This document shows positions 2,377-62,483 of a stretch of 64,000 nucleotides of DNA, piece by piece. Source of the stretch: an uncultured virus (IMG/VR IMGVR_UViG_3300030508_000022) (Duplodnaviria > Heunggongvirae > Uroviricota > Caudoviricetes); IMG/VR virus record IMGVR_UViG_3300030508_000022, positions 1 through 64,000 of that record; one strand, written 5' to 3'. Position 1 is the first letter of the stretch; every line of letters starts with the position of its first letter. A program made the translations under genes and the position numbers. Below the pieces are notes generated by a model. It saw nothing but the letters and a program-made list of their open reading frames with translations. It was not told where the DNA came from and made no database searches.

Positions 2377-3087
2377 ATGACGCAAGAACCAGAAGATCTT
2401 TGGAAGGATTGGAAAAAAAGACCAACTCCTGAAAACCTAAGTAGAGCTGTAAATAGCTTTGGTGGGATGATTGCGTCTTCAGCAAATAACAATAAGACGG
2501 TAAACAAGGCCCTACTGACCAGCAAGGCTAGGCTACTCACATCTGAGGCGATTAAAACTTACGACCCTAGTCAGGGTACAAAGCTTTCTACCCATGTCTA
2601 CAATCACCTACGCCCACTAAACAGAGAGGCAAAGGATATGACAGAGGTGGCCCCAATGTCTAGGTACTACGGGGAAGAGAGCGGAAAGATGGTCAATATG
2701 ATCAGAGGGTTTACAGAGGAAAATGGCAGAGAGCCCGATGATGTTGAGATTAGGGATGCTCTTGGCATTTCTGGACGCCGGCTAGAGAAGCTGAATAAAA
2801 TCGTCAAGTACGAGGTCCCAGAGAGTCAGGTAGTTGGAGACGTTGACGAGGGAGAGGATCCAGAAAGCTCCAGACTAAACCTCTGGACAGAGTATGTCTA
2901 CAATGACCTAGATCATCATGGCAGGAAAATACTTGATATGAAGCTAGGTCGCAATGGGCACCCAGCTATGTCCAACGATGAAATTTCAAAGAAGCTCAAT
3001 CTTAGCCCAGTTGAGGTTTCCAACAGGGCGTCAAAGATTGCACAGTCAATTTTGGATGGAGTGAACTCTAGGGACAAAACGATATGA
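2377..3087 (+). CDS. Phage sigma-70-family RNA polymerase sigma factor
   Basis: Region 2 'EAIKTYDPSQGTKLSTHVYNHL', region 3 'ENGREPDDVEIRDALGIS', region 4 HTH 'MSNDEISKKLNLSPVEVS'. Confidence 0.85.
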   Translation: MTQEPEDLWKDWKKRPTPENLSRAVNSFGGMIASSANNNKTVNKALLTSKARLLTSEAIKTYDPSQGTKLSTHVYNHLRPLNREAKDMTEVAPMSRYYGEESGKMVNMIRGFTEENGREPDDVEIRDALGISGRRLEKLNKIVKYEVPESQVVGDVDEGEDPESSRLNLWTEYVYNDLDHHGRKILDMKLGRNGHPAMSNDEISKKLNLSPVEVSNRASKIAQSILDGVNSRDKTI

Positions 3088-19772: not shown

Positions 19773-19775
19773 TAG

Positions 19776-19819
19776 AGGGGGGGGTATAAAAGTACTCCTG
19801 TTTTGCCATAATATATTGG
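19776..19819 (+). promoter_or_regulatory. Conserved 44-bp intergenic motif copy 1 (candidate phage promoter)
   Basis: A-G8-TATAAAAG-N4-CCTGTT-N-T-N-CCATAATA-Y-ATTGG, repeated with identical spacing at 53895. Confidence 0.6.
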
Positions 19820-20390
19820 AGTTAGTAATTACATATTACCTCCAGAGATATCCCAATTTCAACTTTTAGGGTTCTAGCAGGAATGCAAGTTCTGCTACCT
19901 AAAAGTTGACACCCTAGCCAGCCCCATCTCACAGGGGTGAGGCCGACACCTAAGACCCAGAGCGAAGACTGGCGAGAGTAATGTCGTTTAGAGCTTGCAA
20001 ATCTATATAGGGTGGGGAACAATTTGTGGGGGCAACGAAGAAGGAGAAAACGACTCTATGTTTTTAGCATAAAACCTACTTCAATGCCCCCACTCCAAAT
20101 TTAGAGAATCTCAAGCACAAAGAGTGCGTATATCCCGGTGTGCTTATACGTAAGTTCGTGCGTGAGGTTGGCAGGCGCTAAAGTGGGACGTAACCGACTT
20201 TACCGCGCTATGTGAAGGATACCAAATTCTAGAATGAGGGTATATATCATAGAGGGAGCTTCTCCTGTTGTATCATTATGTTTATGAACTCAGTGAATAG
20301 GTTGGTTAGGAATGCTTCCATAAGGAAGTATCGCAAAAGCCAATACTATTCGGTTTACAATCCCAGGTAATTCTGGGATAGTAGTAGAAG
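19817..20390 (+). ncRNA. Cluster of structured non-coding elements upstream of tmRNA
   Basis: No credible ORF; stems 19859-70/19898-909, 19910-16/20008-14, 20026-34/20085-93 followed by TCCA. Confidence 0.5.
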
Positions 20391-20395
20391 ATTTA

Positions 20396-20829
20396 GGGGG
20401 CGCAAGGATTCGACATTGAAATCTGAGACACAACCCACACGTAGAGGATATCAGTTGGCCTCTTTAATCATCTGGTAAAAAGACTAAATGCAGCTACTAT
20501 TCGTAATGCAGCTACGTCGATCCGATCAGCAATGGTCAATGCAGCCGAGGTTCTCTTCAGCAATGAAGATTCCTACGAGCTCGCAGCTGCCTAATAAGCA
20601 GGATCGCTCATAGCGTCACGGTTCAGGGACGCCCGATGCCCAGAACTTCAAAAGGGCACCTCAATTGCTTAATGAGGGTTCAGCCAAGCATGCATCAATT
20701 GCGTTAAGTTGAAAACCTGGGCCCTGTAGTTGTTCATCGCTACAGCCCTTGATTAGATGAACGAAGCGTGTATAAAGGTTAGTTGAAGATTACAGTGGAC
20801 ACGACTATCGTATGTCGTCGCCTCCACCA
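20396..20829 (+). ncRNA. ssrA: tmRNA
   Basis: 5' GGGGGCG-CAAGGATTCGAC, 3' CGCCTCC-ACCA with G3.U pair; tag ORF 20490-20594 ending YELAAA-stop-stop. Confidence 0.95.
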
Positions 20830-20849
20830 TTTATCTCCATCAAGTTCTG

Positions 20850-20878
20850 TTGACTGCTTCTCCATAATGTGATTTAAT
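20850..20878 (+). promoter_or_regulatory. Sigma-70-type promoter
   Basis: TTGACT-N17-TTTAAT, 9 nt before ATG 20888. Confidence 0.6.
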
Positions 20879-20887
20879 AATTGAGAC

Positions 20888-21529
20888 ATGAAAAACTCAA
20901 TTAAAATAATTTGCCATTACTGTGATGAACCAGCCTACAAACCCAAGGGAGAAATAAGTAGGCAAATTAGAAAGGGGGCAGACAAGTTCTTCTGCTCCCT
21001 TTCTTGTTCTGCAAGCTATAGGAACTCAATAAGACCAAATAGGGTAGTAGAAATACATGCAGTGTGTCCACATTGCAAAAAGGAGTTTGATACAGTTTCT
21101 GGTAAGAATAGAAAAACTTTTTGTACCCCAAGCTGTGCATCAAGGGGGAGTATAACTGAAAATAGATTAGAGGGTAACGCCAGGGGTGGTAGGGCTACGT
21201 GTGGAACAAACCTTATTTCGGTTGAAGAAACTCTAAAAAAGAGAGAGGCATGGAAATATGTACGCCTGAAAGATTTTCTTGAATTTCAAAAAGAAGCGTA
21301 TGAGTTTGAGTACAGGATCCCTACCCTTGACTTTGTCCACGACCTTGCTCTAATAAACAGAAAAATAGTTGTAGAGTTTGATGGAGACGAGCACGAAAGC
21401 ATGAAAGCAGAGGACTCTTACAGAGATGGTATTTTGCGTAGCTCTGGGTGGTCAGTATTTAGGATACCAACCAAAAGCAATGCAGTTATTCCACCAGAAG
21501 TTCTTTACCCAATTTTAAAACAAAATTAA
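20888..21529 (+). CDS. Free-standing endonuclease (Zn-ribbon repeats + DUF559/Vsr-like PD-(D/E)xK domain), probable homing endonuclease
   Basis: 'FCSLSC', 'CPHC..FCTPSC'; 'DLAL...IVVEFDGDEH...RDGILRSSGWSVFRI'. Confidence 0.8.
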   Translation: MKNSIKIICHYCDEPAYKPKGEISRQIRKGADKFFCSLSCSASYRNSIRPNRVVEIHAVCPHCKKEFDTVSGKNRKTFCTPSCASRGSITENRLEGNARGGRATCGTNLISVEETLKKREAWKYVRLKDFLEFQKEAYEFEYRIPTLDFVHDLALINRKIVVEFDGDEHESMKAEDSYRDGILRSSGWSVFRIPTKSNAVIPPEVLYPILKQN

Positions 21530-21800
21530 GGGAGTCGAGACCCAAACCGACTTGAGCTTTCCCAGCTCTTGTAGGTTAACCTCCAGTCCCTTGTCCAATA
21601 CCATGGACTGGGACTGGACAATTTCTGCAGAAAGAAAGCTCATTGGCACTTCCCTGGTGGGCTGCCGATCAAGAGGGGTACAAGTCCCAACACCAGGCCA
21701 ATTTATCTCGAAAGAGATAAAGCTACGGTCATTGAGGGGTCTACAACTGATAAGGCCGAGTCCCTCGTCTTTGAAGGTAGATAGCGACCTGAGCCGTAGT
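21530..21800 (+). ncRNA. Structured non-coding elements
   Basis: Stems gagctttc/gaaagctc, tccagtccc/gggactgga, cctggtg/caccagg+CCA, tttatctc-GAAA-gagataaa, gctacgg/ccgtagt. Confidence 0.45.
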
Positions 21801-21807
21801 ATGATTT

Positions 21808-21880
21808 TCTGGGATCGTCTAATGATAAGACACCTTGTGTAAGCAGGGAAATCCGAGGTTCAATTCCTTCGTCCCAGCCA
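21808..21880 (+). tRNA. tRNA-like RNA / pseudo-tRNA (anticodon undefined)
   Basis: CTGGGA/TCCCAG acceptor, GTCT/AGAC D-stem, GGTTCAATTCC T-loop; anticodon loop only 6 nt (TGTAAG). Confidence 0.65.
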
Positions 21881-21889
21881 ATTTCCCTG

Positions 21890-22300
21890 GGGAGGGAAAA
21901 CACCTCTGCGGTTTAGAAATACACTGTGAAAAAACTGTAGTAAATTAAAACACAAAAGTTTTTGTTTACTGGTGAACGGTTTTGTTGTGCTCTAAATCGC
22001 AGAACCTTTTTGCTTTGATTTATTCAAAGCGAAACCCTGGTCAGGGTCTTGTTGGGTATAACAAGATACAACCAAAATCCCACTCCCCCTTGCCTCGGGG
22101 GGTGGGATCCACTTTCTGTAAAAAGTAATACCTACCCCTTAGGGGAAAAACAAAAAGCTCACAAAACCAACCATACCCCACGCGAGTGGGTCGCCCGAAT
22201 CAGAATCCATACAAGCGGATTTTGATTCAATCAAAAGCGACCTGCTGCGTTGGGGATGGATTCCTGTACACCAGAACTGTGTGCTTTTTGTTAGATGCTG
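21890..22300. other. Hairpin-dense non-coding region
   Basis: At least 7 inverted repeats, e.g. 21905-17/21991-22003, 22077-89/22097-108, 22197-208/22217-28. Confidence 0.5.
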
Positions 22301-22304
22301 GAGA

Positions 22305-56568: not shown

Positions 56569-57196
56569 ACCCCCCAAAGTAAAGGAATCGCAACTGCCAG
56601 TTGTGCCCAAGAAACGGGGTCGTCCATTTAAAAATCCTCCTCAATCACTTCCGACTGAGAAGAAAAAACGTGGCAGACCTTTTAAGAATCAGCCTACTCC
56701 AACTGCTACCAAACCAAAGGTGAGGGCAAAGAGGGTTGAGAAAGTTACCCCAGAAAAACCAATCAAGAAAAAGGAAGTAGTGGTTGATACAGGGTTTGGA
56801 TCTGTAGAAGGAAAGATGTTCCTATCCCACCGAGACTCCAAGATACCTAAATTCCAATCCTGGTACAAACAGTACCTGGATGTAGATCCACAGAATAATG
56901 GAACAGACATTAATGGTCTTTCTGAAGTAATCTCTAAGCTGCAGGATGTAGTTAACGACTACTTCATTGAGAACAGTATAGACCTGTCCATTAGGATTCC
57001 GGTTATGAGATTGATGCTGGGAGAGAAGATTACAAAAATATTCTTTATGCCAGAAGCTGCTGGAGTGACTGTTGAGATCTATTACAAGGTGAGTTCAGTT
57101 CCATCTGGTGCTAGTCCTTCTACAAAGACAACCTTGGTTTGTAATCAATTCAATTCTGCAGTGAGGTCAGTATTCCCACTGGGAGTTTCTGGATAG
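56540..57196 (+). CDS. AT-hook DNA-binding protein
   Basis: Three motifs: KRRGRPPK, KKRGRPFK, KKRGRPFK. Confidence 0.7.
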   Translation: MPPKKKRRGRPPKVKESQLPVVPKKRGRPFKNPPQSLPTEKKKRGRPFKNQPTPTATKPKVRAKRVEKVTPEKPIKKKEVVVDTGFGSVEGKMFLSHRDSKIPKFQSWYKQYLDVDPQNNGTDINGLSEVISKLQDVVNDYFIENSIDLSIRIPVMRLMLGEKITKIFFMPEAAGVTVEIYYKVSSVPSGASPSTKTTLVCNQFNSAVRSVFPLGVSG

Positions 57197-57229
57197 AAAT
57201 TTATTTTACCCTGAAACTTAAGATTCTTG

Positions 57230-57259
57230 TTGACCTGCCTTAAATCCAGTGGTTAAAAT
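57230..57259 (+). promoter_or_regulatory. Sigma-70-type promoter candidate
   Basis: TTGACC-N18-TAAAAT upstream of rod-like RNA. Confidence 0.45.
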
Positions 57260-57280
57260 CGAATCCGTCAGGATGAGTTC

Positions 57281-57384
57281 GGGAAAAGTCCGCTTCGCGT
57301 TAGCGAAGTGACTTATCGTGAGGAATCCGAAGGTTTCCGAGGGATCAGTCACTTCGGTAGCGAAAGCAGATCTTTTCCCCACCA
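57281..57384 (+). ncRNA. Rod-like small RNA ending in ACCA
   Basis: gggaaaag/cttttccc, cgaagtgact/agtcacttcg stems; 3' ACCA. Confidence 0.55.
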
Positions 57385-57428
57385 TAAATACTTAAACAAC
57401 ATGACAAAAAGCTCCCTGAAAGGGAGCC

Positions 57429-58208
57429 ATGTCTTCATCCAAAAAGTTCGTGACAGAAAAAAACAAAAAGACAGATGAGTCTCAGTTTCCAGTCATAAAG
57501 TCAGAGGAGGATTCAGAGCTTCCTGAGAAAGAAGATCTCTTTGATAACTCCCCTAGGCCAGTCTTAACCTCCCTGATTGTTTCAGGAAAAGAGATCTCTG
57601 TCCCTTCCTCCTGTCAGTTCGATACAAAAGCGTTCTGGCATCCCAACCTGCCATTCGTCAACTCCTACAGAAACGAAGGGATCCTTCCAGTTAAGGAAAC
57701 TAAGGAGTGGCTCTACAACAACTTCCTAGAAACCCTCACAGACCAAGAGGGTACCCAGAAGGTTATGGCAATGGAGAACGACGAACTTCTAGGAGTTGTC
57801 GCTACTCTATCCAAAGATCAATTTGAGAGACTGGCAATATACTGCTCGCAGAGGTTGTCTGAGGGCGCATACAAAGCTGAATGGAATGTAGAGATGTGGA
57901 ACATTGGGTTCTCTCTCTTCTCAGAGCTTGGAATGGTACGGCTAGGGGTAGTTCCCCTTCCAGATGCCAAGAGGCTTTGGGTTGGAAGAGATTCAGTTGC
58001 TGGATCCAGGCAAATTCAATTCAGGGCTGCTAGAGGAAATTTCCTCCACGTTGGCCTAGACTTTGTAAGAACCTTTATTGGTCAAGATGCCCACAAGAAG
58101 AGTTGGTCTCTCCAGCACAGAGGTGGACTCTGGAGGATAGTGTCAGGTAAACCCCGATCTCCTTCGTATATCTACATTGAGGAGTTCGACAACGATTTAT
58201 TTCAATGA
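57429..58208 (+). CDS. Hypothetical protein
   Basis: 259-aa ORF. Confidence 0.65.
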   Translation: MSSSKKFVTEKNKKTDESQFPVIKSEEDSELPEKEDLFDNSPRPVLTSLIVSGKEISVPSSCQFDTKAFWHPNLPFVNSYRNEGILPVKETKEWLYNNFLETLTDQEGTQKVMAMENDELLGVVATLSKDQFERLAIYCSQRLSEGAYKAEWNVEMWNIGFSLFSELGMVRLGVVPLPDAKRLWVGRDSVAGSRQIQFRAARGNFLHVGLDFVRTFIGQDAHKKSWSLQHRGGLWRIVSGKPRSPSYIYIEEFDNDLFQ

Positions 58209-58474
58209 GTCTTCGATATGAACAGGATTCAGCAATAGCTGCTACTGAGAAGTTTTTGAAGAGCTTCTTTACTGGGAGGAAAAGAACACTCAAGGAATTG
58301 AGAGAGGAGGCGACCAAGTGCCTCAGACACTTCCCAGGAATTGACAAGGATGGCAAGCCCATCTTTAGTCAGGACAACATCAAGTGTCAGACTAGAGATG
58401 AGGACCAAGCATTTTTTAATCCCCCAAAAATCTGTCCTCCAGTGGAGTACAGGCGTGGGGATAAGCGATACTAG
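58205..58474 (+). CDS. Small hypothetical phage protein
   Basis: 'LREEATKCLRHFP' motif; ATGA overlap. Confidence 0.6.
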   Translation: MSLRYEQDSAIAATEKFLKSFFTGRKRTLKELREEATKCLRHFPGIDKDGKPIFSQDNIKCQTRDEDQAFFNPPKICPPVEYRRGDKRY

Positions 58475-58475
58475 T

Positions 58476-58618
58476 CAGCAGGTCAGTAACAACGTCTGGT
58501 AGCACATTTGACATAGAGTGCTAGGAGTAACGTCCCTAGCTCCCTCCACGATTGTCATTTAAAAGCGCCTACGGGATCGAGAGCCCAAAGAGCGGAGGGA
58601 CTAAGTGAAAATCTGCTG
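58476..58618 (+). ncRNA. Structured non-coding element
   Basis: Closing stem cagcaggt/atctgctg, inner tagcac/gtgcta, gctagg/cctagc, tccctcc/ggaggga. Confidence 0.45.
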
Positions 58619-58719
58619 TATACTTACAGAAGCACCTCTACCCGACAATCCAAAGCGCAATCCTTATACTCGATGACTTGAAAAGGGAGTGCATTCCCGT
58701 TCTGACTATTTTGATTTTA

Positions 58720-58793
58720 TGCGTGATCTTTCAATTGGCAGGAACCTGGCCAAATGGGGCTCGGGAATGTGGGTTCGAGTCCCGCTCACGCTC
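58720..58793 (+). tRNA. tRNA-like RNA with aberrant anticodon arm
   Basis: GCGTGA/TCACGC acceptor, D-loop AATTGGCA, canonical GTGGG-TTCGAGT-CCCGC T-arm; elongated bulged anticodon stem. Confidence 0.65.
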
Positions 58794-58796
58794 GTA

Positions 58797-59134
58797 TTTT
58801 CTGGACAAGGAGGTGGGCTTAGAAGCAGCCATCCATAGAGAGTTGACCGTAGTCGGGGGTCTAGGATACCTATGAGTCTACATCAAATACACCGATAAAA
58901 AGGAGATAAATGTAGTATACGTTAGGGAATATATCTGAAGACTTATCTTATTCATTAAATAAAGGCATATGTTACCTAGGGCACTCTCCCTAGGTGATTT
59001 GAATAGGGTATGCTGCGAGGTTGCTACCTCCTCTTGTAATGAAATCTAGTTATAACCTATTGATTACAAGTAGGTATATGAGTGTTATACTACGAGACCA
59101 GTCATTTGGCGTAAAAGCACGATTGTCCAGAAAA
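58797..59134 (+). ncRNA. ncRNA mimicking 23S rRNA uL11-binding domain (H43/H44) with large insert
   Basis: GGAGGTGGGCTTAGAAGCAGCCATCC (58809-34) and GCGTAAAAGC (59109-18) enclosed by perfect 12-bp stem. Confidence 0.7.
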
Positions 59135-59149
59135 CATTTTTGTAGAACT

Positions 59150-59352
59150 TCTTGGGTAGTGAAAAATACCGCTTGTTGGTTGAGTTTGGCCTGGCAAACT
59201 GTCATGACCCTATCAGCTTTGGTATGATTGGCTTTCAGACAAGCCACGCCTTGAAGGCAGAAAACAAGCAGGATAGTGTTGGCCAAGCTTCTTGCATTGC
59301 GCATCGCTGATACCGACGCTTACCCTGTTGCGCCTATTCTCACTACTCAAGA
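59150..59352 (+). ncRNA. Structured non-coding element
   Basis: 14-bp closing stem tcttgggtagtgaa/ttcactactcaaga; inner gcttgtt/aacaagc. Confidence 0.5.
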
Positions 59353-59541
59353 TCCTTTTTTGGAAGATGTGTTTCGGTTAGTATCGGTATTGCCGAATTA
59401 AATGTTGAAAACCCGTCTGTGGCCGCGAGGAGCAATCCTTTCCCGCCCAAAAAAAGTAACAATGTAGAATTATGTGAAGTCCAAACTCACAAAAATTCTA
59501 CTACAGATAATATCAGCAGCCCCTCAAAAAGGAATTAGTAT

Positions 59542-60288
59542 ATGTCGTACTTAGTACTCGACCCACAAAACAGCATTGAGGACAAATTCAAAGTCATCTC
59601 AGCAGTATCAGCAAGCAGACAGCATGGAGTTCAGTTCCGCCCAAGATCCTCTCAGGATAATACTTGGTTCGACTTCCCATGCACAGAAGTAACAGACGAA
59701 CATGTTCGTCAGAACTTCTTTAGAATCCCGATTTCGGGACAGGAGCAGACCTATCAAATCGAGCCGGTTCGCCGTGTGGTGTATCCAGCACTCGCTGACA
59801 TCGAACCGAAAGACACTTGGCTAAACCCAGGTCGCCTCTCTCCCGAGCAGATCAATACTGCAGCGGGATATCGTTTATTGACAAAGAATGAACAGATTGC
59901 AATCGAGCTAGGTAAGGTCTCACAATGCTTCATTGGCGATCTTGAATTTTACGACTCCGGTGTTTGGAGAACGCGTCACCTAGGCAGTGCCCTTGCTGGC
60001 AAGAACGGTTTAACCACTTACCGCACCAAGCGTAAGTACAAGAACCCACTGAGTTCAAAAACTGATGATTGGTTCACTCCAACAATGACTTGGATTCGAC
60101 TCAAGCGAGACAAGTCTACTGCGTGGCTTGTAACAGAAATTGTCCTTGATTTAACTTCAGGCCGTCCCGAGGGGTTGTTATTTAATAATGTTAGACACGA
60201 TGTACTAAGTCTCATCCGTTCGGACAAATATGAGGTTAGTGCTGGTGACGACTATTGGCAGCCATTATCGGTCTTCAAAAACATTTAG
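59542..60288 (+). CDS. Hypothetical protein
   Basis: 248-aa ORF within RNA island. Confidence 0.65.
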   Translation: MSYLVLDPQNSIEDKFKVISAVSASRQHGVQFRPRSSQDNTWFDFPCTEVTDEHVRQNFFRIPISGQEQTYQIEPVRRVVYPALADIEPKDTWLNPGRLSPEQINTAAGYRLLTKNEQIAIELGKVSQCFIGDLEFYDSGVWRTRHLGSALAGKNGLTTYRTKRKYKNPLSSKTDDWFTPTMTWIRLKRDKSTAWLVTEIVLDLTSGRPEGLLFNNVRHDVLSLIRSDKYEVSAGDDYWQPLSVFKNI

Positions 60289-60293
60289 TTGAT

Positions 60294-60511
60294 TTTGGTA
60301 GGCGGTGTGAAATCGTAGAACATAAAGGTTAGTTTCAAAGATAATCCTAGGGCCCCAAATTTAGGACTTTGAATCAGGTATTTAGCAAGGCACTGATAAA
60401 GCTTAGACCTTAAAATACTCTACAAGGAAATACTGGAGTACCAGTCCGGTTAGAAATGAGAGTATACCGAAACGCAGATAATCGTGGGAAGTAACGTCCC
60501 ACCCTACCAAA
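60294..60511 (+). ncRNA. tRNA-shell-like structured RNA with long insert
   Basis: tttggtagg/cctaccaaa closing stem, D-arm-like tgt-gaaatcgtaga-aca, 3' hairpin gtggga-agtaacg-tcccac. Confidence 0.45.
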
Positions 60512-60517
60512 TTGCCT

Positions 60518-60661
60518 TTTTGTAGTGCCGCAAGGCTGTGGTGAAACCATCCACAAATAGTAAGTGACCGAGTCCCTTTGCGAGCTGCAGGTTTCTTCAG
60601 GACAGAGGCAGGGGCCGGATCATCCTGTTACCATTCAGTGCACAAAACTATTACTACAAAA
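60518..60661 (+). ncRNA. Structured non-coding element
   Basis: ttttgtagt/actacaaaa closing stem, GCAA tetraloop hairpin, tgtgg/ccaca, aatagt/actatt. Confidence 0.45.
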
Positions 60662-60716
60662 TAAGCGGCAAAGGCCGCTCAGATATTGCCCATGTTAGTT
60701 TAGTAGAAAGTTCAGT

Positions 60717-61184
60717 ATGGCAAAGAAGATTAGTGTAGAGGAGTTAGATACAGTCTTGACTGCTTCAGTCCAGGACGGAGCAGAGAAAGAAAGAATTTTA
60801 GCAGAGGTTCGTAATTATATTGCGAATCTTGCAAATGATCAGGACGAGGCAGAGCCTGCTGTAGAGACCAGGGATGTAACAATCCTTTTTGGCTCTCAGG
60901 AGACCATTGACGTGATTGATACCGACGCGATTGTAGCGTTCACTGTCAAAATTGAAGCCACCTCAGATCATAACCAGATAATTCCTCATTTGCTAGCGAA
61001 GGCCAGTATTTTTAATCAGAACACAAGGCGTAGAAACTCTCGTATCCAGAATCTGGGCGAGACTTTCAACACCCTCAGTCCTAAAAGGCACTTGGATGAG
61101 TTTCCTAAAAAGATCCTCACCAAGCAAGCGTCCCTGGTCATCAAGACCACGAACCATCCTATACAGAGTGTTGTTGTGCGTTGA
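60717..61184 (+). CDS. Hypothetical protein
   Basis: 155-aa ORF. Confidence 0.65.
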   Translation: MAKKISVEELDTVLTASVQDGAEKERILAEVRNYIANLANDQDEAEPAVETRDVTILFGSQETIDVIDTDAIVAFTVKIEATSDHNQIIPHLLAKASIFNQNTRRRNSRIQNLGETFNTLSPKRHLDEFPKKILTKQASLVIKTTNHPIQSVVVR

Positions 61185-61329
61185 CTACGGAGATGCGCTA
61201 CAGCCGGTGTAACCTTTTACGGGGTTATGCCGGCTAAGCGCCTTTCTATAGAAAGCGCCTAGTTGTGGTTCTTGATTAAAAACTAACGCTGGCTCCTGGC
61301 GTCCAGGTAGCAAACATAATATACACATT

Positions 61330-61575
61330 ATGGCAAACGGTAACATTCGTATCACTGTCTCCTTCGGAGGCAACCAGCTCCCAATCAATGGTCTCCCTGT
61401 GGGGTCCACTCTGAGCTGCATTCGTGCCAACCGCAACGTTTCTGCAGCCCTCGGCTACAGCAACGAGAACGTGGAGTTCGTCCTCAACGGCTCCCGCGCA
61501 AGCGACAATACTGTCATCTCTGACGGCGATGTCGTTAACGTTCAGCACAAGGCACACGAGAAGGCTTCCGCCTAG
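61330..61575 (+). CDS. Ubiquitin-like (beta-grasp, ThiS/MoaD-type) protein
   Basis: 'IRITVSFG...GSTLSCI...FVLNGSRASDNTVISDGDVVNV'; upstream of E2- and E1-like genes. Confidence 0.8.
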   Translation: MANGNIRITVSFGGNQLPINGLPVGSTLSCIRANRNVSAALGYSNENVEFVLNGSRASDNTVISDGDVVNVQHKAHEKASA

Positions 61576-61592
61576 TCTCGTAGGCTAATTTT

Positions 61593-61650
61593 ATCCCCCA
61601 ATCTCGTTGCGCCGAGATTGGGGGATATCTTAGACATTTATTTTTTTTAT
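61593..61650 (+). terminator. Hairpin + T-rich tract after Ubl gene
   Basis: atcccccaatctcg/cgagattgggggat stem then tttatttttttt. Confidence 0.55.
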
Positions 61651-61673
61651 ATCCCACAAGTTCTTCAAAACAC

Positions 61674-62483
61674 ATGAAACCTCTTATTATCCTTAACGAA
61701 GACGGTGTCGCATACCGTATGGAGCCATTCGCTCTACAAAATGTTAGTGAGATCATCGAACGAGTCTCAAATCAGTCGTTCTCAACCATCAAAAAGCATA
61801 CGACTTTTGAGGTTGCAGAATCAGTTGGATCATCAGGCGTACAGTACAAAAGGGTGCCATTCCACCTGTCCATTACGAAGAAGAACGAAGCTGTCTACTG
61901 GGGATATATTCCTGGGATTGTCTTTGATACCTCCTTCCAGATTGTGGAACACAGTGGAACCCCTCGATTGATCGCTGATTTTACTCGCTCAGCAACTGAC
62001 GCATTCCAGGATAGGATTTACTGCTCATCGGAATCTCTCAGTACTTCGGATTGCAAGGTTCGGTTCTTGGTTGCTATCTCTCTTACTCCAGGGGGGTCAG
62101 GCAATTACGAAATCAATGCATATTTCTGCTTCCAACTTTTTGATGTGAAAGCGGGGTTAATTATGGGCAACTTCTTGCCGTGTATCCCAAACGTCTTCGC
62201 TGACGCCAGGGTTTGCATGGGTAGTGCCTTTGATAAGTACACCAATCCTGTCAAAACCTCGGATGAAGAAATCCAGCGTACCCTCAAGTCATTCTTTGAG
62301 AGCCGCATGAATTCGGATCTGATCACTCAAGGTGCAAATCGCATCGAGTTGGCAGACCAGCTAATTGGGTGGAACAGAGAAAAGAAGCAGGTTGCTCCCA
62401 TCAAGTCCGCCAAAACAATCCTCACCGTCAAAGTTGGAAACTACTATCTTGATGGCCTTCCATACGCCACAGTTGGTTGGTAA
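61674..62483 (+). CDS. Prokaryotic E2-like (Prok-E2 family D/PRTRC-B-like) conjugating enzyme
   Basis: 'LPCIPNVFADARVCMG' matches E2 PN-x5-6-C active site; 'FFESRMNSDL'. Confidence 0.75.
   Translation: MKPLIILNEDGVAYRMEPFALQNVSEIIERVSNQSFSTIKKHTTFEVAESVGSSGVQYKRVPFHLSITKKNEAVYWGYIPGIVFDTSFQIVEHSGTPRLIADFTRSATDAFQDRIYCSSESLSTSDCKVRFLVAISLTPGGSGNYEINAYFCFQLFDVKAGLIMGNFLPCIPNVFADARVCMGSAFDKYTNPVKTSDEEIQRTLKSFFESRMNSDLITQGANRIELADQLIGWNREKKQVAPIKSAKTILTVKVGNYYLDGLPYATVGW

What the first reader, a model, noticed from the sequence alone, without database searches (positions are those of the whole stretch)
58476..60661. Second ncRNA island: chain of self-enclosed structured RNAs
Seen: about 1.5 kb of non-coding DNA made of back-to-back units, each closed by its own 8-14-bp terminal stem (58476-58618, 58797-59134, 59150-59352, 60294-60511, 60518-60661). 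They are separated by short A/T linkers and interleaved with a tRNA-like unit and one ORF. Inference: a polycistronic ncRNA precursor processed like a tRNA array. I could not assign these units to any family by eye.
Basis: partly seen in the sequence, partly recalled or inferred. Interest (0 to 1): 0.7.

Follow-up and report, generated by a model that had tools for sequence, protein, structure and literature searches.

The report
Phage RNA array copying ribosome centre
A large peat phage carries a row of folded non-coding units whose sequences stand out in peat RNA samples, and the ends of the largest unit copy the piece of 23S ribosomal RNA that binds protein uL11, so it likely acts as an off-ribosome decoy of that site; the other units match no family searched.

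Summary
All five closing stems (8-13 bp) are at the stated coordinates, there is a sixth unit (59356-59454), and the chain beats shuffles (0/150 and 3/150).

Unit 58797-59134 is a split copy of the 23S rRNA GTPase-associated centre (H43/H44, the uL11 site). It carries a 261-nt insert and sits just behind a tRNA-like unit with a defective anticodon arm. About 230 IMG/VR stretches share its H43 motif. Aligned members show compensatory pairing, usually lie among same-strand tRNAs, and match no other part of 23S rRNA. Neither Rfam nor ten paper searches describe the family. This scan found it before on other DNA (15 notes).

One peat metatranscriptome has four units at 184-1063x against 2-19x for flanking ORFs; a DNA run is flat at 3-6x. 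These are contigs only, so RNA ends and a single precursor are inferred. This copy keeps the uL11-contact bases but has a remodelled four-way junction, unique among 86 cores.

The other units have no homologue or family in my searches, so their folds are untested. Best reading: a tRNA-array-like transcript cut into stable RNAs, one of which binds host uL11 as a decoy. Binding and purpose are untested.

The parts
58205..58474 (+). 89-aa ORF whose stop codon abuts unit U1
   Evidence: no Pfam hit; an RNA-run contig spans 58303-58610 across ORF and U1 (X19)
58476..58618 (+). U1: self-closed RNA unit, 143 nt, no family
   Evidence: 8-bp closing stem; z -0.78; lies in a 407x contig in RNA run X16, which is joined to a first-island sequence; contigs of two studies stop at 58610 where the DNA run goes on
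58720..58793 (+). tRNA-like unit: canonical T arm and acceptor stem, weak D arm, anticodon arm with a C-C mismatch, no CCA; inferred processing handle for U2
   Evidence: ARAGORN finds it only at a relaxed threshold; no Rfam tRNA hit; ends 3 nt before U2
58797..59134 (+). U2: split copy of the 23S rRNA GTPase-associated centre (whole unit, 338 nt), closed by a perfect 12-bp helix in place of H42
   Evidence: RNA-run contigs at 7-1063x in five runs
58812..58843 (+). U2 5' half: H43 (U1060 at 58814, A1067 at 58821) and junction up to U1090 (A1088 at 58841)
   Evidence: 27 of 30 nt identical to E. coli 23S over 58804-58833; profile score 38.9, family range 34.8-41.7, next best in genome 1.6
58844..59108 (+). 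U2 insert (261 nt, closed by its own stem) plus the family's TTTG linker, between positions 1090 and 1091
   Evidence: insert-closing pairs form in 84, 82 and 76 of 86 members; TTTG linker in 68 of 86; no homologue of the insert itself
59109..59122 (+). U2 3' half: H44 (G1091 at 59109, A1095 at 59113) and the remodelled 1101-1104 strand
   Evidence: profile score 27.1, family range 9.8-29.8, next best 7.1; this 1101-1104 sequence occurs in 1 of 86 cores
59150..59352 (+). U3: self-closed RNA unit, 203 nt, no family
59356..59454 (+).
   Evidence: 8-bp stem; 5.9x in X16, with two substitutions and a 1-nt deletion
59542..60288 (+). 248-aa orphan ORF, hypervariable between strains
   Evidence: no Pfam hit; only its own cluster found; 16 of 17 strain substitutions change the amino acid
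60294..60511 (+). U4: self-closed RNA unit, 218 nt, with a 6-bp hairpin next to the 3' strand of the closing stem (T-arm-like position); no family
   Evidence: 9-bp stem; z -2.68; 384x contig in X16; X19 contig 60307-60500; no relative found by covariance model
60518..60661 (+). U5: self-closed RNA unit, 144 nt, two GNRA-capped hairpins; no family
   Evidence: 9-10-bp stem; z -1.85; covered together with U4 by contigs in X15 and X17; no relative found by covariance model
60662..60681 (.). GC-rich hairpin that ends the island; terminator-like only on the minus strand

Best explanation
The island is a row of self-closed phage non-coding units, likely transcribed together with the flanking ORFs and cut into stable RNAs as in a tRNA array, and the two ends of its largest unit copy the 23S rRNA GTPase-associated centre, which likely binds host ribosomal protein uL11 away from the ribosome as a decoy. 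Shown: the stems; the sequence match to 23S H43/H44; a large phage family with compensatory base pairs and a variable insert at one fixed place; the absence of any other rRNA; and far higher depth of the units than of neighbouring ORFs in one RNA run. Inferred: one plus-strand precursor cut at the tRNA-like unit and at the closing stems (about 0.6); folding of U2 into the H43/H44 tertiary core and binding of the uL11 C-terminal domain (about 0.65). Most speculative: that drawing uL11 away from ribosomes blunts uL11-dependent surveillance of translation such as the RelA stringent response (about 0.3; the RelA-uL11 link is recalled and comes from no call). The roles of U1, U3, U4 and U5 are not explained; they are most likely further stable RNAs of the same array that act on host translation.
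For: (1) 27 of 30 nt match E. coli 23S H43, score 45 against a shuffle maximum of 29; none of the other 14 stretches tested beat its shuffles. (2) An 18-nt H43 pattern finds about 230 IMG/VR stretches. Of 124 matches examined, 108 close with an H44 half. None of 154 fetched loci, nor the phage contig, matches 23S outside this domain, while the E. coli control does. (3) In 79 standard-length cores: 1058-1080 pairs in 78 with four Watson-Crick types (shuffle mean 32.8, max 49); 1054-1105 in 79; 1055-1104 in 79; 1057-1081 in 77; 1082-1086 in 70; U1060 and A1088 are invariant in 79. (4) In 31 members found from the 3' half, G1071, C1072, C1076 and A1077 are invariant while A1067 (26 of 31) and G1068 (25 of 31) vary. 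This fits selection on the fold and on the uL11 C-terminal contact more than on the loop tip; PMC2175356 (passages) places uL11 contacts at U1060-A1088 and the minor groove of the 1067 stem. (5) 49 of 67 loci have tRNAs within 3 kb, all 356 on the mimic's strand, and 17 of 67 have a tRNA ending within 60 nt upstream, as the tRNA-like unit does here (loci not independent). (6) RNA run X16: U1 407x, U2 1063x, U3 184x, U4 384x, ORF contigs 2-19x; DNA run X12 is flat at 3.1-5.6x. (7) Contigs of two studies stop at 58610; one is laid at 59149-59350; others bridge ORF-U1, ORF-U4-U5 and U4-U5.
Against: No binding, structure or phenotype data. This copy departs from the family at the four-way junction: one base short (7 of 86 cores), G where A1085 is invariant in 79 of 79, and G1103/A1104 where G1055-C1104-type pairing holds in 79 of 79, so its fold may be altered or weakened. 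All RNA evidence is from assembled contigs, which the tool says cannot rank genes or show ends, strand or a single transcript. The strong contrast comes from one run: in X15 U2 is 7x against ORF contigs of 4-15x, in X17 30x against 4-7x, in X18 18x against 4-9x, and in X19 U1 and U4 are 7x and 4x. The U1 depth in X16 belongs to a contig that is 62% other sequence. The column-shuffle control ignores relatedness. H43 positions 1062-1079 were fixed by the search pattern in the viral set and loosely in the genome set. U1, U3, U4 and U5 have no homologues, so no covariation. Folding energies are within the range of coding windows.
Confidence: 0.55

Rival explanations
1. The uL11-binding core is a handle or folding scaffold and the variable insert is the working part: host uL11 stabilises a phage ribonucleoprotein that docks on a ribosome, factor or phage protein.
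For: Nearly all members carry a closed insert at exactly one place, with a conserved closing stem and 4-nt linker; inserts run from 40 to 363 nt including the linker, and some short words recur among them. U2's insert is at high depth and its one strain change falls in a hairpin loop.
Against: Inserts share no universal motif (best 5-mer in 25 of 63 dissimilar inserts, and U2's insert lacks the seven words tested). Two viral loci (L013, L087) have H43 followed directly by H44 with no insert.
Confidence: 0.22
2. The RNA is bait for host defence enzymes, toxins or thiopeptide antibiotics that attack the GTPase-associated centre, sparing real ribosomes, much as phage tRNAs offset tRNA-cutting defences.
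For: Placement in tRNA arrays; high abundance in one RNA run; U2 keeps A1067 and A1095, the thiostrepton cleft bases named in PMC2175356 (passages). In phage XacN1 the copy directly follows a 2'-5' RNA ligase gene.
Against: A1067 and G1068 vary in the family and A1095 in 3 of 79, which a faithful bait would be expected to keep; no such defence system was identified here.
Confidence: 0.15
3. Only U2 is a selected RNA; the other units are separate transcripts, stable leftovers of mRNA leaders and trailers, or decayed tRNA-array remnants.
For: No homologue or family for U1, U3, U4 or U5; modest folding z-scores; U3b varies between strains and is at low depth; both tRNA-like units of this contig have broken anticodon arms.
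Against: U1, U3 and U4 lie in contigs of 184-407x in X16; the chain of closing stems beats shuffles; DNA strain X12 shows no substitution in U1-U5 or the tRNA-like unit against 17 in the ORF between them, though those 17 cluster in one segment.
Confidence: 0.2
4. U2 is a captured, decaying piece of host 23S rRNA, or an rRNA fragment interrupted by an intron-like element.
For: High identity to 23S over H43; this copy has lost several junction bases.
Against: No other 23S sequence in any locus; family-wide compensatory pairs and a family-specific U1090-A1101 pair (73 of 79); no intron model matches; no joint skipping the insert in seven RNA runs, whose contigs hold the insert itself (contigs drop rare forms).
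Confidence: 0.04

Closest known systems
GTPase-associated centre of bacterial 23S rRNA (tip of H42, H43, H44; the 58-nt uL11-binding domain, E. coli 1051-1108, numbering recalled)
   Same: H43 27 of 30 nt and H44 9 of 10 nt identical to E. coli; U1060, A1088, G1071, C1072, G1091-C1100, C1092-G1099, A1067 and A1095 all present.
   Different: Free-standing and phage-encoded; closed by its own perfect 12-bp helix; 261-nt insert between 1090 and 1091; four-way junction remodelled; no further rRNA.
Phage GAC-mimic RNAs noted earlier in this scan (e1-5998464 and others) and present in cultured phages UNO-G1W1 and XacN1
   Same: Both halves score within the family range; same insertion point, closing stem and TTTG linker; a tRNA-shaped unit directly upstream.
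   Different: One-base-short junction subtype (7 of 86) with changes at 1085, 1103 and 1104 seen in no other core; insert longer than 79 of 86; neighbours are unclassified RNAs, with no canonical tRNA on the 64-kb window.
GOLLD and ROOL RNAs
   Same: Large structured RNAs near tRNAs and in prophages (PMC5737381, passages).
   Different: No match to Rfam models at E<=10; units are 99-338 nt; that paper's main text has no mention of L11, 23S or rRNA.
Ribosomal-protein leader RNAs that imitate rRNA binding sites (recalled: L1, L10 and others)
   Same: An RNA outside the ribosome that copies an rRNA protein-binding site.
   Different: Leaders act in cis on a downstream ribosomal-protein gene. U2 has no such gene downstream, matches no Rfam leader, and its relatives sit among tRNAs.

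Membership tests
23S rRNA GTPase-associated centre | H43 hairpin sequence and pairing | tested here: met
   27/30 nt identical to E. coli; G1058-C1080 pair, a position that covaries in 78 of 79 family cores
23S rRNA GTPase-associated centre | H44 hairpin and tertiary bases U1060, A1088, G1071, C1072, G1091-C1100, C1092-G1099 | tested here: met
   all present at 58814, 58841, 58825-58826 and 59109-59118
23S rRNA GTPase-associated centre | Four-way junction (1055-1104 pair, A1103, A1085, 1082-1086, 1057-1081) | tested here: not met
   one base short, G at 1085, G/A at 1103/1104
23S rRNA GTPase-associated centre | Contiguous part of a 23S rRNA gene | tested here: not met
   261-nt insert; no other 23S match in the contig; no rRNA hit in Rfam
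23S rRNA GTPase-associated centre | Binds uL11, thiopeptides or translation GTPases | not testable with these tools
   needs a binding assay
Phage GAC-mimic RNA family (defined by this scan, not by Rfam) | H43 half and linker+H44 half in order on one strand, closed by a terminal helix | tested here: met
   scores 38.9 and 27.1 within family ranges; 10 of 10 closing pairs
Phage GAC-mimic RNA family (defined by this scan, not by Rfam) | Closed insert between 1090 and 1091 followed by a TTTG-type linker | tested here: met
Phage GAC-mimic RNA family (defined by this scan, not by Rfam) | Location among tRNA genes | tested here: inconclusive
   only a defective tRNA-like unit is adjacent; 18 of 67 relatives also have no tRNA within 3 kb
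GOLLD / ROOL / other Rfam RNAs (all units) | Match to the family covariance model | tested here: not met
   four chance-level hits at E 2-8 in 57000-62000, none in a unit
tRNA (58720-58793) | Cloverleaf with T arm and acceptor stem | tested here: met
   ARAGORN at relaxed threshold
tRNA (58720-58793) | Regular anticodon arm and score above standard thresholds | tested here: not met
   C-C mismatch in the stem; missed by default ARAGORN and by Rfam
Ribosomal-protein leader | Lies upstream of a ribosomal-protein gene | tested here: not met
   next ORF is 400 nt away and has no Pfam hit or homologue
Group I/II intron (U2 insert) | Intron core motifs and a spliced product | tested here: not met
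   no Rfam intron hit; no joint in the RNA contigs, which cannot exclude a rare form
Polycistronic tRNA-array-type precursor | One transcript cut to discrete RNAs with defined ends | tested here: inconclusive
   bridging contigs and contig ends near unit ends; no raw reads

The most novel reading that the evidence does not exclude
The phage makes a set of abundant RNAs that assemble, with host uL11, into an off-ribosome particle that captures translation GTPases or RelA. U2 supplies the ribosomal docking surface and U1, U3, U4, U5 and first-island RNAs are partners. The 407x contig joining the 3' end of a first-island unit (about 22088) to the start of U1 would then reflect physical contact or ligation of two of these RNAs.
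Probability: 0.12. Interest if true: 0.93.

Novelty: categorically new. Interest (0 to 1): 0.8.

Why it matters
Known rRNA mimics (recalled) are mRNA leaders that control ribosomal-protein synthesis in cis. A free RNA copy of a functional centre of the ribosome, spread over hundreds of phages and standing out in RNA from a natural sample, would be a new way for viruses to act on host translation. It would also give a testable handle on why phage tRNA arrays carry extra large RNAs. Cultured phages carry the family, so the question can go to the bench. This locus adds a sign of expression in nature, a junction variant that shows which parts of the fold can change, and four companion RNAs of no known family.

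Tried and rejected
Rfam: no hit in the island. In 20 family loci only tRNAs were hit.

Comparison of 15 non-coding stretches with the E. coli rRNA operon: only U2 beat its shuffles, so by-eye likenesses of U4 to 16S rRNA were dropped.

A hairpin loop shared by U1 and U4: the 33 viral matches looked like chance, with no shared context.

Homologue searches for U1, U3, U4 and U5 were all empty or chance-level: nhmmer on 122 loci; BLAST on phage records; patterns in IMG/VR; one-sequence covariance models of U5 and U4 on the window and 73 loci; earlier scan notes.

Related phage DNA: none in IMG/VR through the E2-like gene, and only an identical copy in JGI contigs. A relative at 58% protein identity lies on contigs up to 190 kb, but its DNA could not be fetched.

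A sarcin-ricin-like word in the inserts: present in 16 of 63 against 8 expected, absent from U2, so not taken further.

Promoter-like sites: 8 found against 5.8 +/- 2.4 expected. Base pairing between U1 and the joined first-island unit: no better than shuffles (155 of 200 as good).

The lack of RNA cover over the tRNA-like unit and over U5 in X16 is not used as evidence.

Rows dropped before counts: 16 of 124 matches without a closed core; duplicates (108 to 90 cores); E. coli itself, two spurious pairings (L078, L096) and one insert-free copy (L087), giving 86; 88 of 120 genome-collection matches had no H43 upstream.

Papers: ten searches, seen as listings and abstract starts, showed no description of such an RNA. 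Passages were read in PMC2175356, PMC5737381, PMC10690425 and PMC6190515; the last gave no usable uL11-RelA statement. One DOI look-up returned an unrelated paper. In PMC10690425, six supplementary files were searched without a hit and three could not be searched, so the family may be among its unnamed candidates. Subscription journals are mostly not covered.
Full report
Setting. The window is the first 64 kb of a single 73,391-base contig. It reads as part of a large phage: structural-looking genes, DNA polymerase III alpha, RecA, a tmRNA at 20396-20829, and Prok-E2-like and ThiF genes just downstream of the island. The same E2-like protein occurs on a 186,740-base contig. Runs that hold the region at high share are peat metagenomes. 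The host is unknown.

Observation. A score for side-by-side stems of 8 bp or more was reached by 0 of 150 shuffles for 58470-59460 and by 3 of 150 for 60290-60665 (regions picked after the fact). Folding energy is weaker evidence: z from -0.78 (U1) to -3.26 (U2), while 3 of 18 ORF windows scored -3.8 to -6.4. Folded as a whole, U2, U3, U4 and U5 keep their closing stems (P mostly 0.8-1.0), while U1, the tRNA-like unit and U3b do not. Rfam has nothing for any unit, even at E<=10.

What U2 is. BLAST of 58797-59134 against E. coli genomes hits 23S rRNA weakly (E 1-4). Direct alignment gives 27 of 30 identical bases, score 45 against a shuffle maximum of 29, and none of the other 14 stretches tested beats its shuffles. 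The match is helix 43 of the GTPase-associated centre. Helix 44 follows 265 nt later, and the unit's 12-bp closing stem stands where the tip of helix 42 would be. Landmarks (E. coli numbering, recalled): U1060 at 58814, A1067 at 58821, A1088 at 58841, G1091 at 59109, A1095 at 59113. The insert, 58844-59104, is closed by its own stem and followed by a TTTG linker.

The family. An 18-nt H43 pattern matches about 230 IMG/VR stretches, of which 120 were fetched. With three annotated records and the window, 124 matches were examined and 108 close with an H44 half and a terminal helix. After removing duplicates, E. coli, two spurious pairings and one insert-free copy, 86 cores remain, 79 of standard length. 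In those 79, 1058-1080 pairs in 78 (T-A 32, G-C 28, A-T 13, C-G 4; shuffle mean 32.8), 1054-1105 and 1055-1104 in 79, 1057-1081 in 77, 1082-1086 in 70, and the outer closing pairs in 68-74. The shuffle ignores relatedness, but four pair types at one position are hard to get otherwise. A search of GTDB contigs from the 3' half gave 120 matches, 32 with H43 upstream. Among 31 distinct ones, G1071, C1072, C1076 and A1077 were invariant while A1067 and G1068 varied in 5 and 6. None of 154 loci nor the phage contig matches 23S outside this domain. Of 67 loci with enough flank, 49 have tRNAs, all 356 on the same strand, and in 17 a tRNA ends within 60 nt upstream (some loci are near-duplicates). Cultured phages UNO-G1W1 and XacN1 carry unannotated copies. 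Earlier notes of this scan report the same family on at least 14 other genomes; I had reached the reading before looking and tested it here.

How this copy differs. Both halves score inside the family range and far above anything else in the contig. But U2 belongs to a subtype one base shorter in the junction (7 of 86), has G where A1085 is invariant in the standard set, and has G1103/A1104, seen in 1 of 86. By inspection the lost G-C pair could be replaced by tandem G-A pairs, with A1085 lost along with the pair it docks into in the ribosome (recalled); this is inference. The closing helix is uninterrupted, so the kink-turn that I recall as the L10 site is absent. PMC2175356 (passages) places uL11's C-terminal domain on the minor groove of the 1067 stem and the U1060-A1088 pair, and thiostrepton at A1067/A1095; all are kept.

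Expression. Six RNA runs hold part of the region, all as assembled contigs. In X16 the contigs over U1, U2, U3 and U4 have depths 407, 1063, 184 and 384, against 2-19 for ORF contigs. DNA run X12, from another study, covers the stretch evenly at 3.1-5.6, so the contrast is not repeated DNA, and the U2 contigs lie in the insert and H44 side, so it is not host rRNA. The contrast is smaller or absent elsewhere: U2 30x against 4-7x (X17), 18x against 4-9x (X18), 14x against 3.5x (X20), and 7x against 4-15x (X15). Contig ends fall near unit ends (58610 in two studies; 59149-59350; 60307-60500), and contigs bridge ORF-U1, ORF-U4-U5 and U4-U5. The tool warns that contigs cannot show ends, strand, level or a single transcript, so these are hints. 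The plus strand is inferred from the orientation of the mimic, the tRNA-like unit and the flanking ORFs.

Strain differences. X12 has no substitution in U1, the tRNA-like unit, U2, U3, U4 or U5, a 2-nt insertion in U3 and a 1-nt deletion in U3b, but 17 substitutions in the ORF, 16 of them changing an amino acid and all within 59917-60250. One change in U2's insert falls in a hairpin loop. One in U5, seen in two RNA runs, leads the predicted fold to switch to a different register and costs 3.4 kcal/mol, so it is not clear support.

Other units. The tRNA-like unit has a good T arm and acceptor stem but a broken anticodon arm and no CCA. It ends 3 nt before U2, where many relatives have a true tRNA, so it most likely survives as a cutting signal (inference). 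U1, U3, U4 and U5 had no homologue in any search, so their folds are predictions. One X16 contig joins U1's start (58466) to sequence ending at 22088, the 3' end of a self-closed unit in the first island (only the last 30 of 236 loose letters were shown). A library template switch between two abundant RNAs is the plainest cause and would mark real ends; ligation in the cell or a rearranged strain is not excluded.

Mechanism. Shown: layout, sequence identity, family, covariation, and enrichment in RNA samples. Inferred: a plus-strand precursor cut at the tRNA-like unit and closing stems; U2 folds into the H43/H44 core and binds uL11. The conservation pattern favours the uL11 C-terminal surface over the factor-contacting loop tip. 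I commit to a decoy that draws uL11 off the ribosome pool and so blunts uL11-dependent surveillance such as RelA activation (recalled link, about 0.3 for this last step). Rivals are a uL11-stabilised scaffold for the insert, bait for enzymes or drugs that attack this centre, a reading in which only U2 matters, and a decaying rRNA relic.

Novelty. Not in Rfam 15 and not found in ten paper searches (listings and abstract starts). It is not mentioned in the main text of PMC5737381 or PMC10690425 (passages); three supplementary files of the latter could not be searched. U2 works like, but is not, a ribosomal GTPase-associated centre. As a free viral copy of a ribosomal functional site it lies outside the kinds I can name. 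Interest 0.8.

Noticed in passing
window 21889-22088 joined to 58466-58610: RNA run X16 has a 381-nt contig at 407x that joins the 3' end of a self-closed first-island unit to the start of U1, 36 kb away; DNA run X12 shows the normal order. Template switch, ligation or rearranged strain.
   Followed up: partly
window 19773-22304: First non-coding island: a tmRNA whose tag frame reads 34 residues ending in ELAAA, a second tRNA-like unit with a 6-nt anticodon loop (21809-21879) and further self-closed units without Rfam match.
   Followed up: partly
window 59542-60288: Orphan ORF in which 16 of 17 strain substitutions change the amino acid, clustered in about 330 nt, while the frame stays open; may be under diversifying selection.
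   Followed up: partly
window 57230-57385: Promoter-like site (10 of 12 match) followed by another long self-closed stem-loop of about 115 nt (-53 kcal/mol) upstream of the ORFs that lead into the island; little RNA cover.
   Followed up: no
   Followed up: no
L013 about 3001-3040 and L087: Two viral copies have H43 followed directly by H44 with no insert and no other rRNA.
   Followed up: no
L052 3001-3550: Two different GAC-mimic copies in tandem within an 18-tRNA array.
   Followed up: no
L122 2328-3250 (phage XacN1): The mimic begins right after a gene annotated as 2'-5' RNA ligase.
   Followed up: no
L158-L277: 32 of 120 GTDB contig matches are family members, in bins labelled with many phyla and one archaeon; whether they are phage contigs inside bins was not checked.
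   Followed up: no
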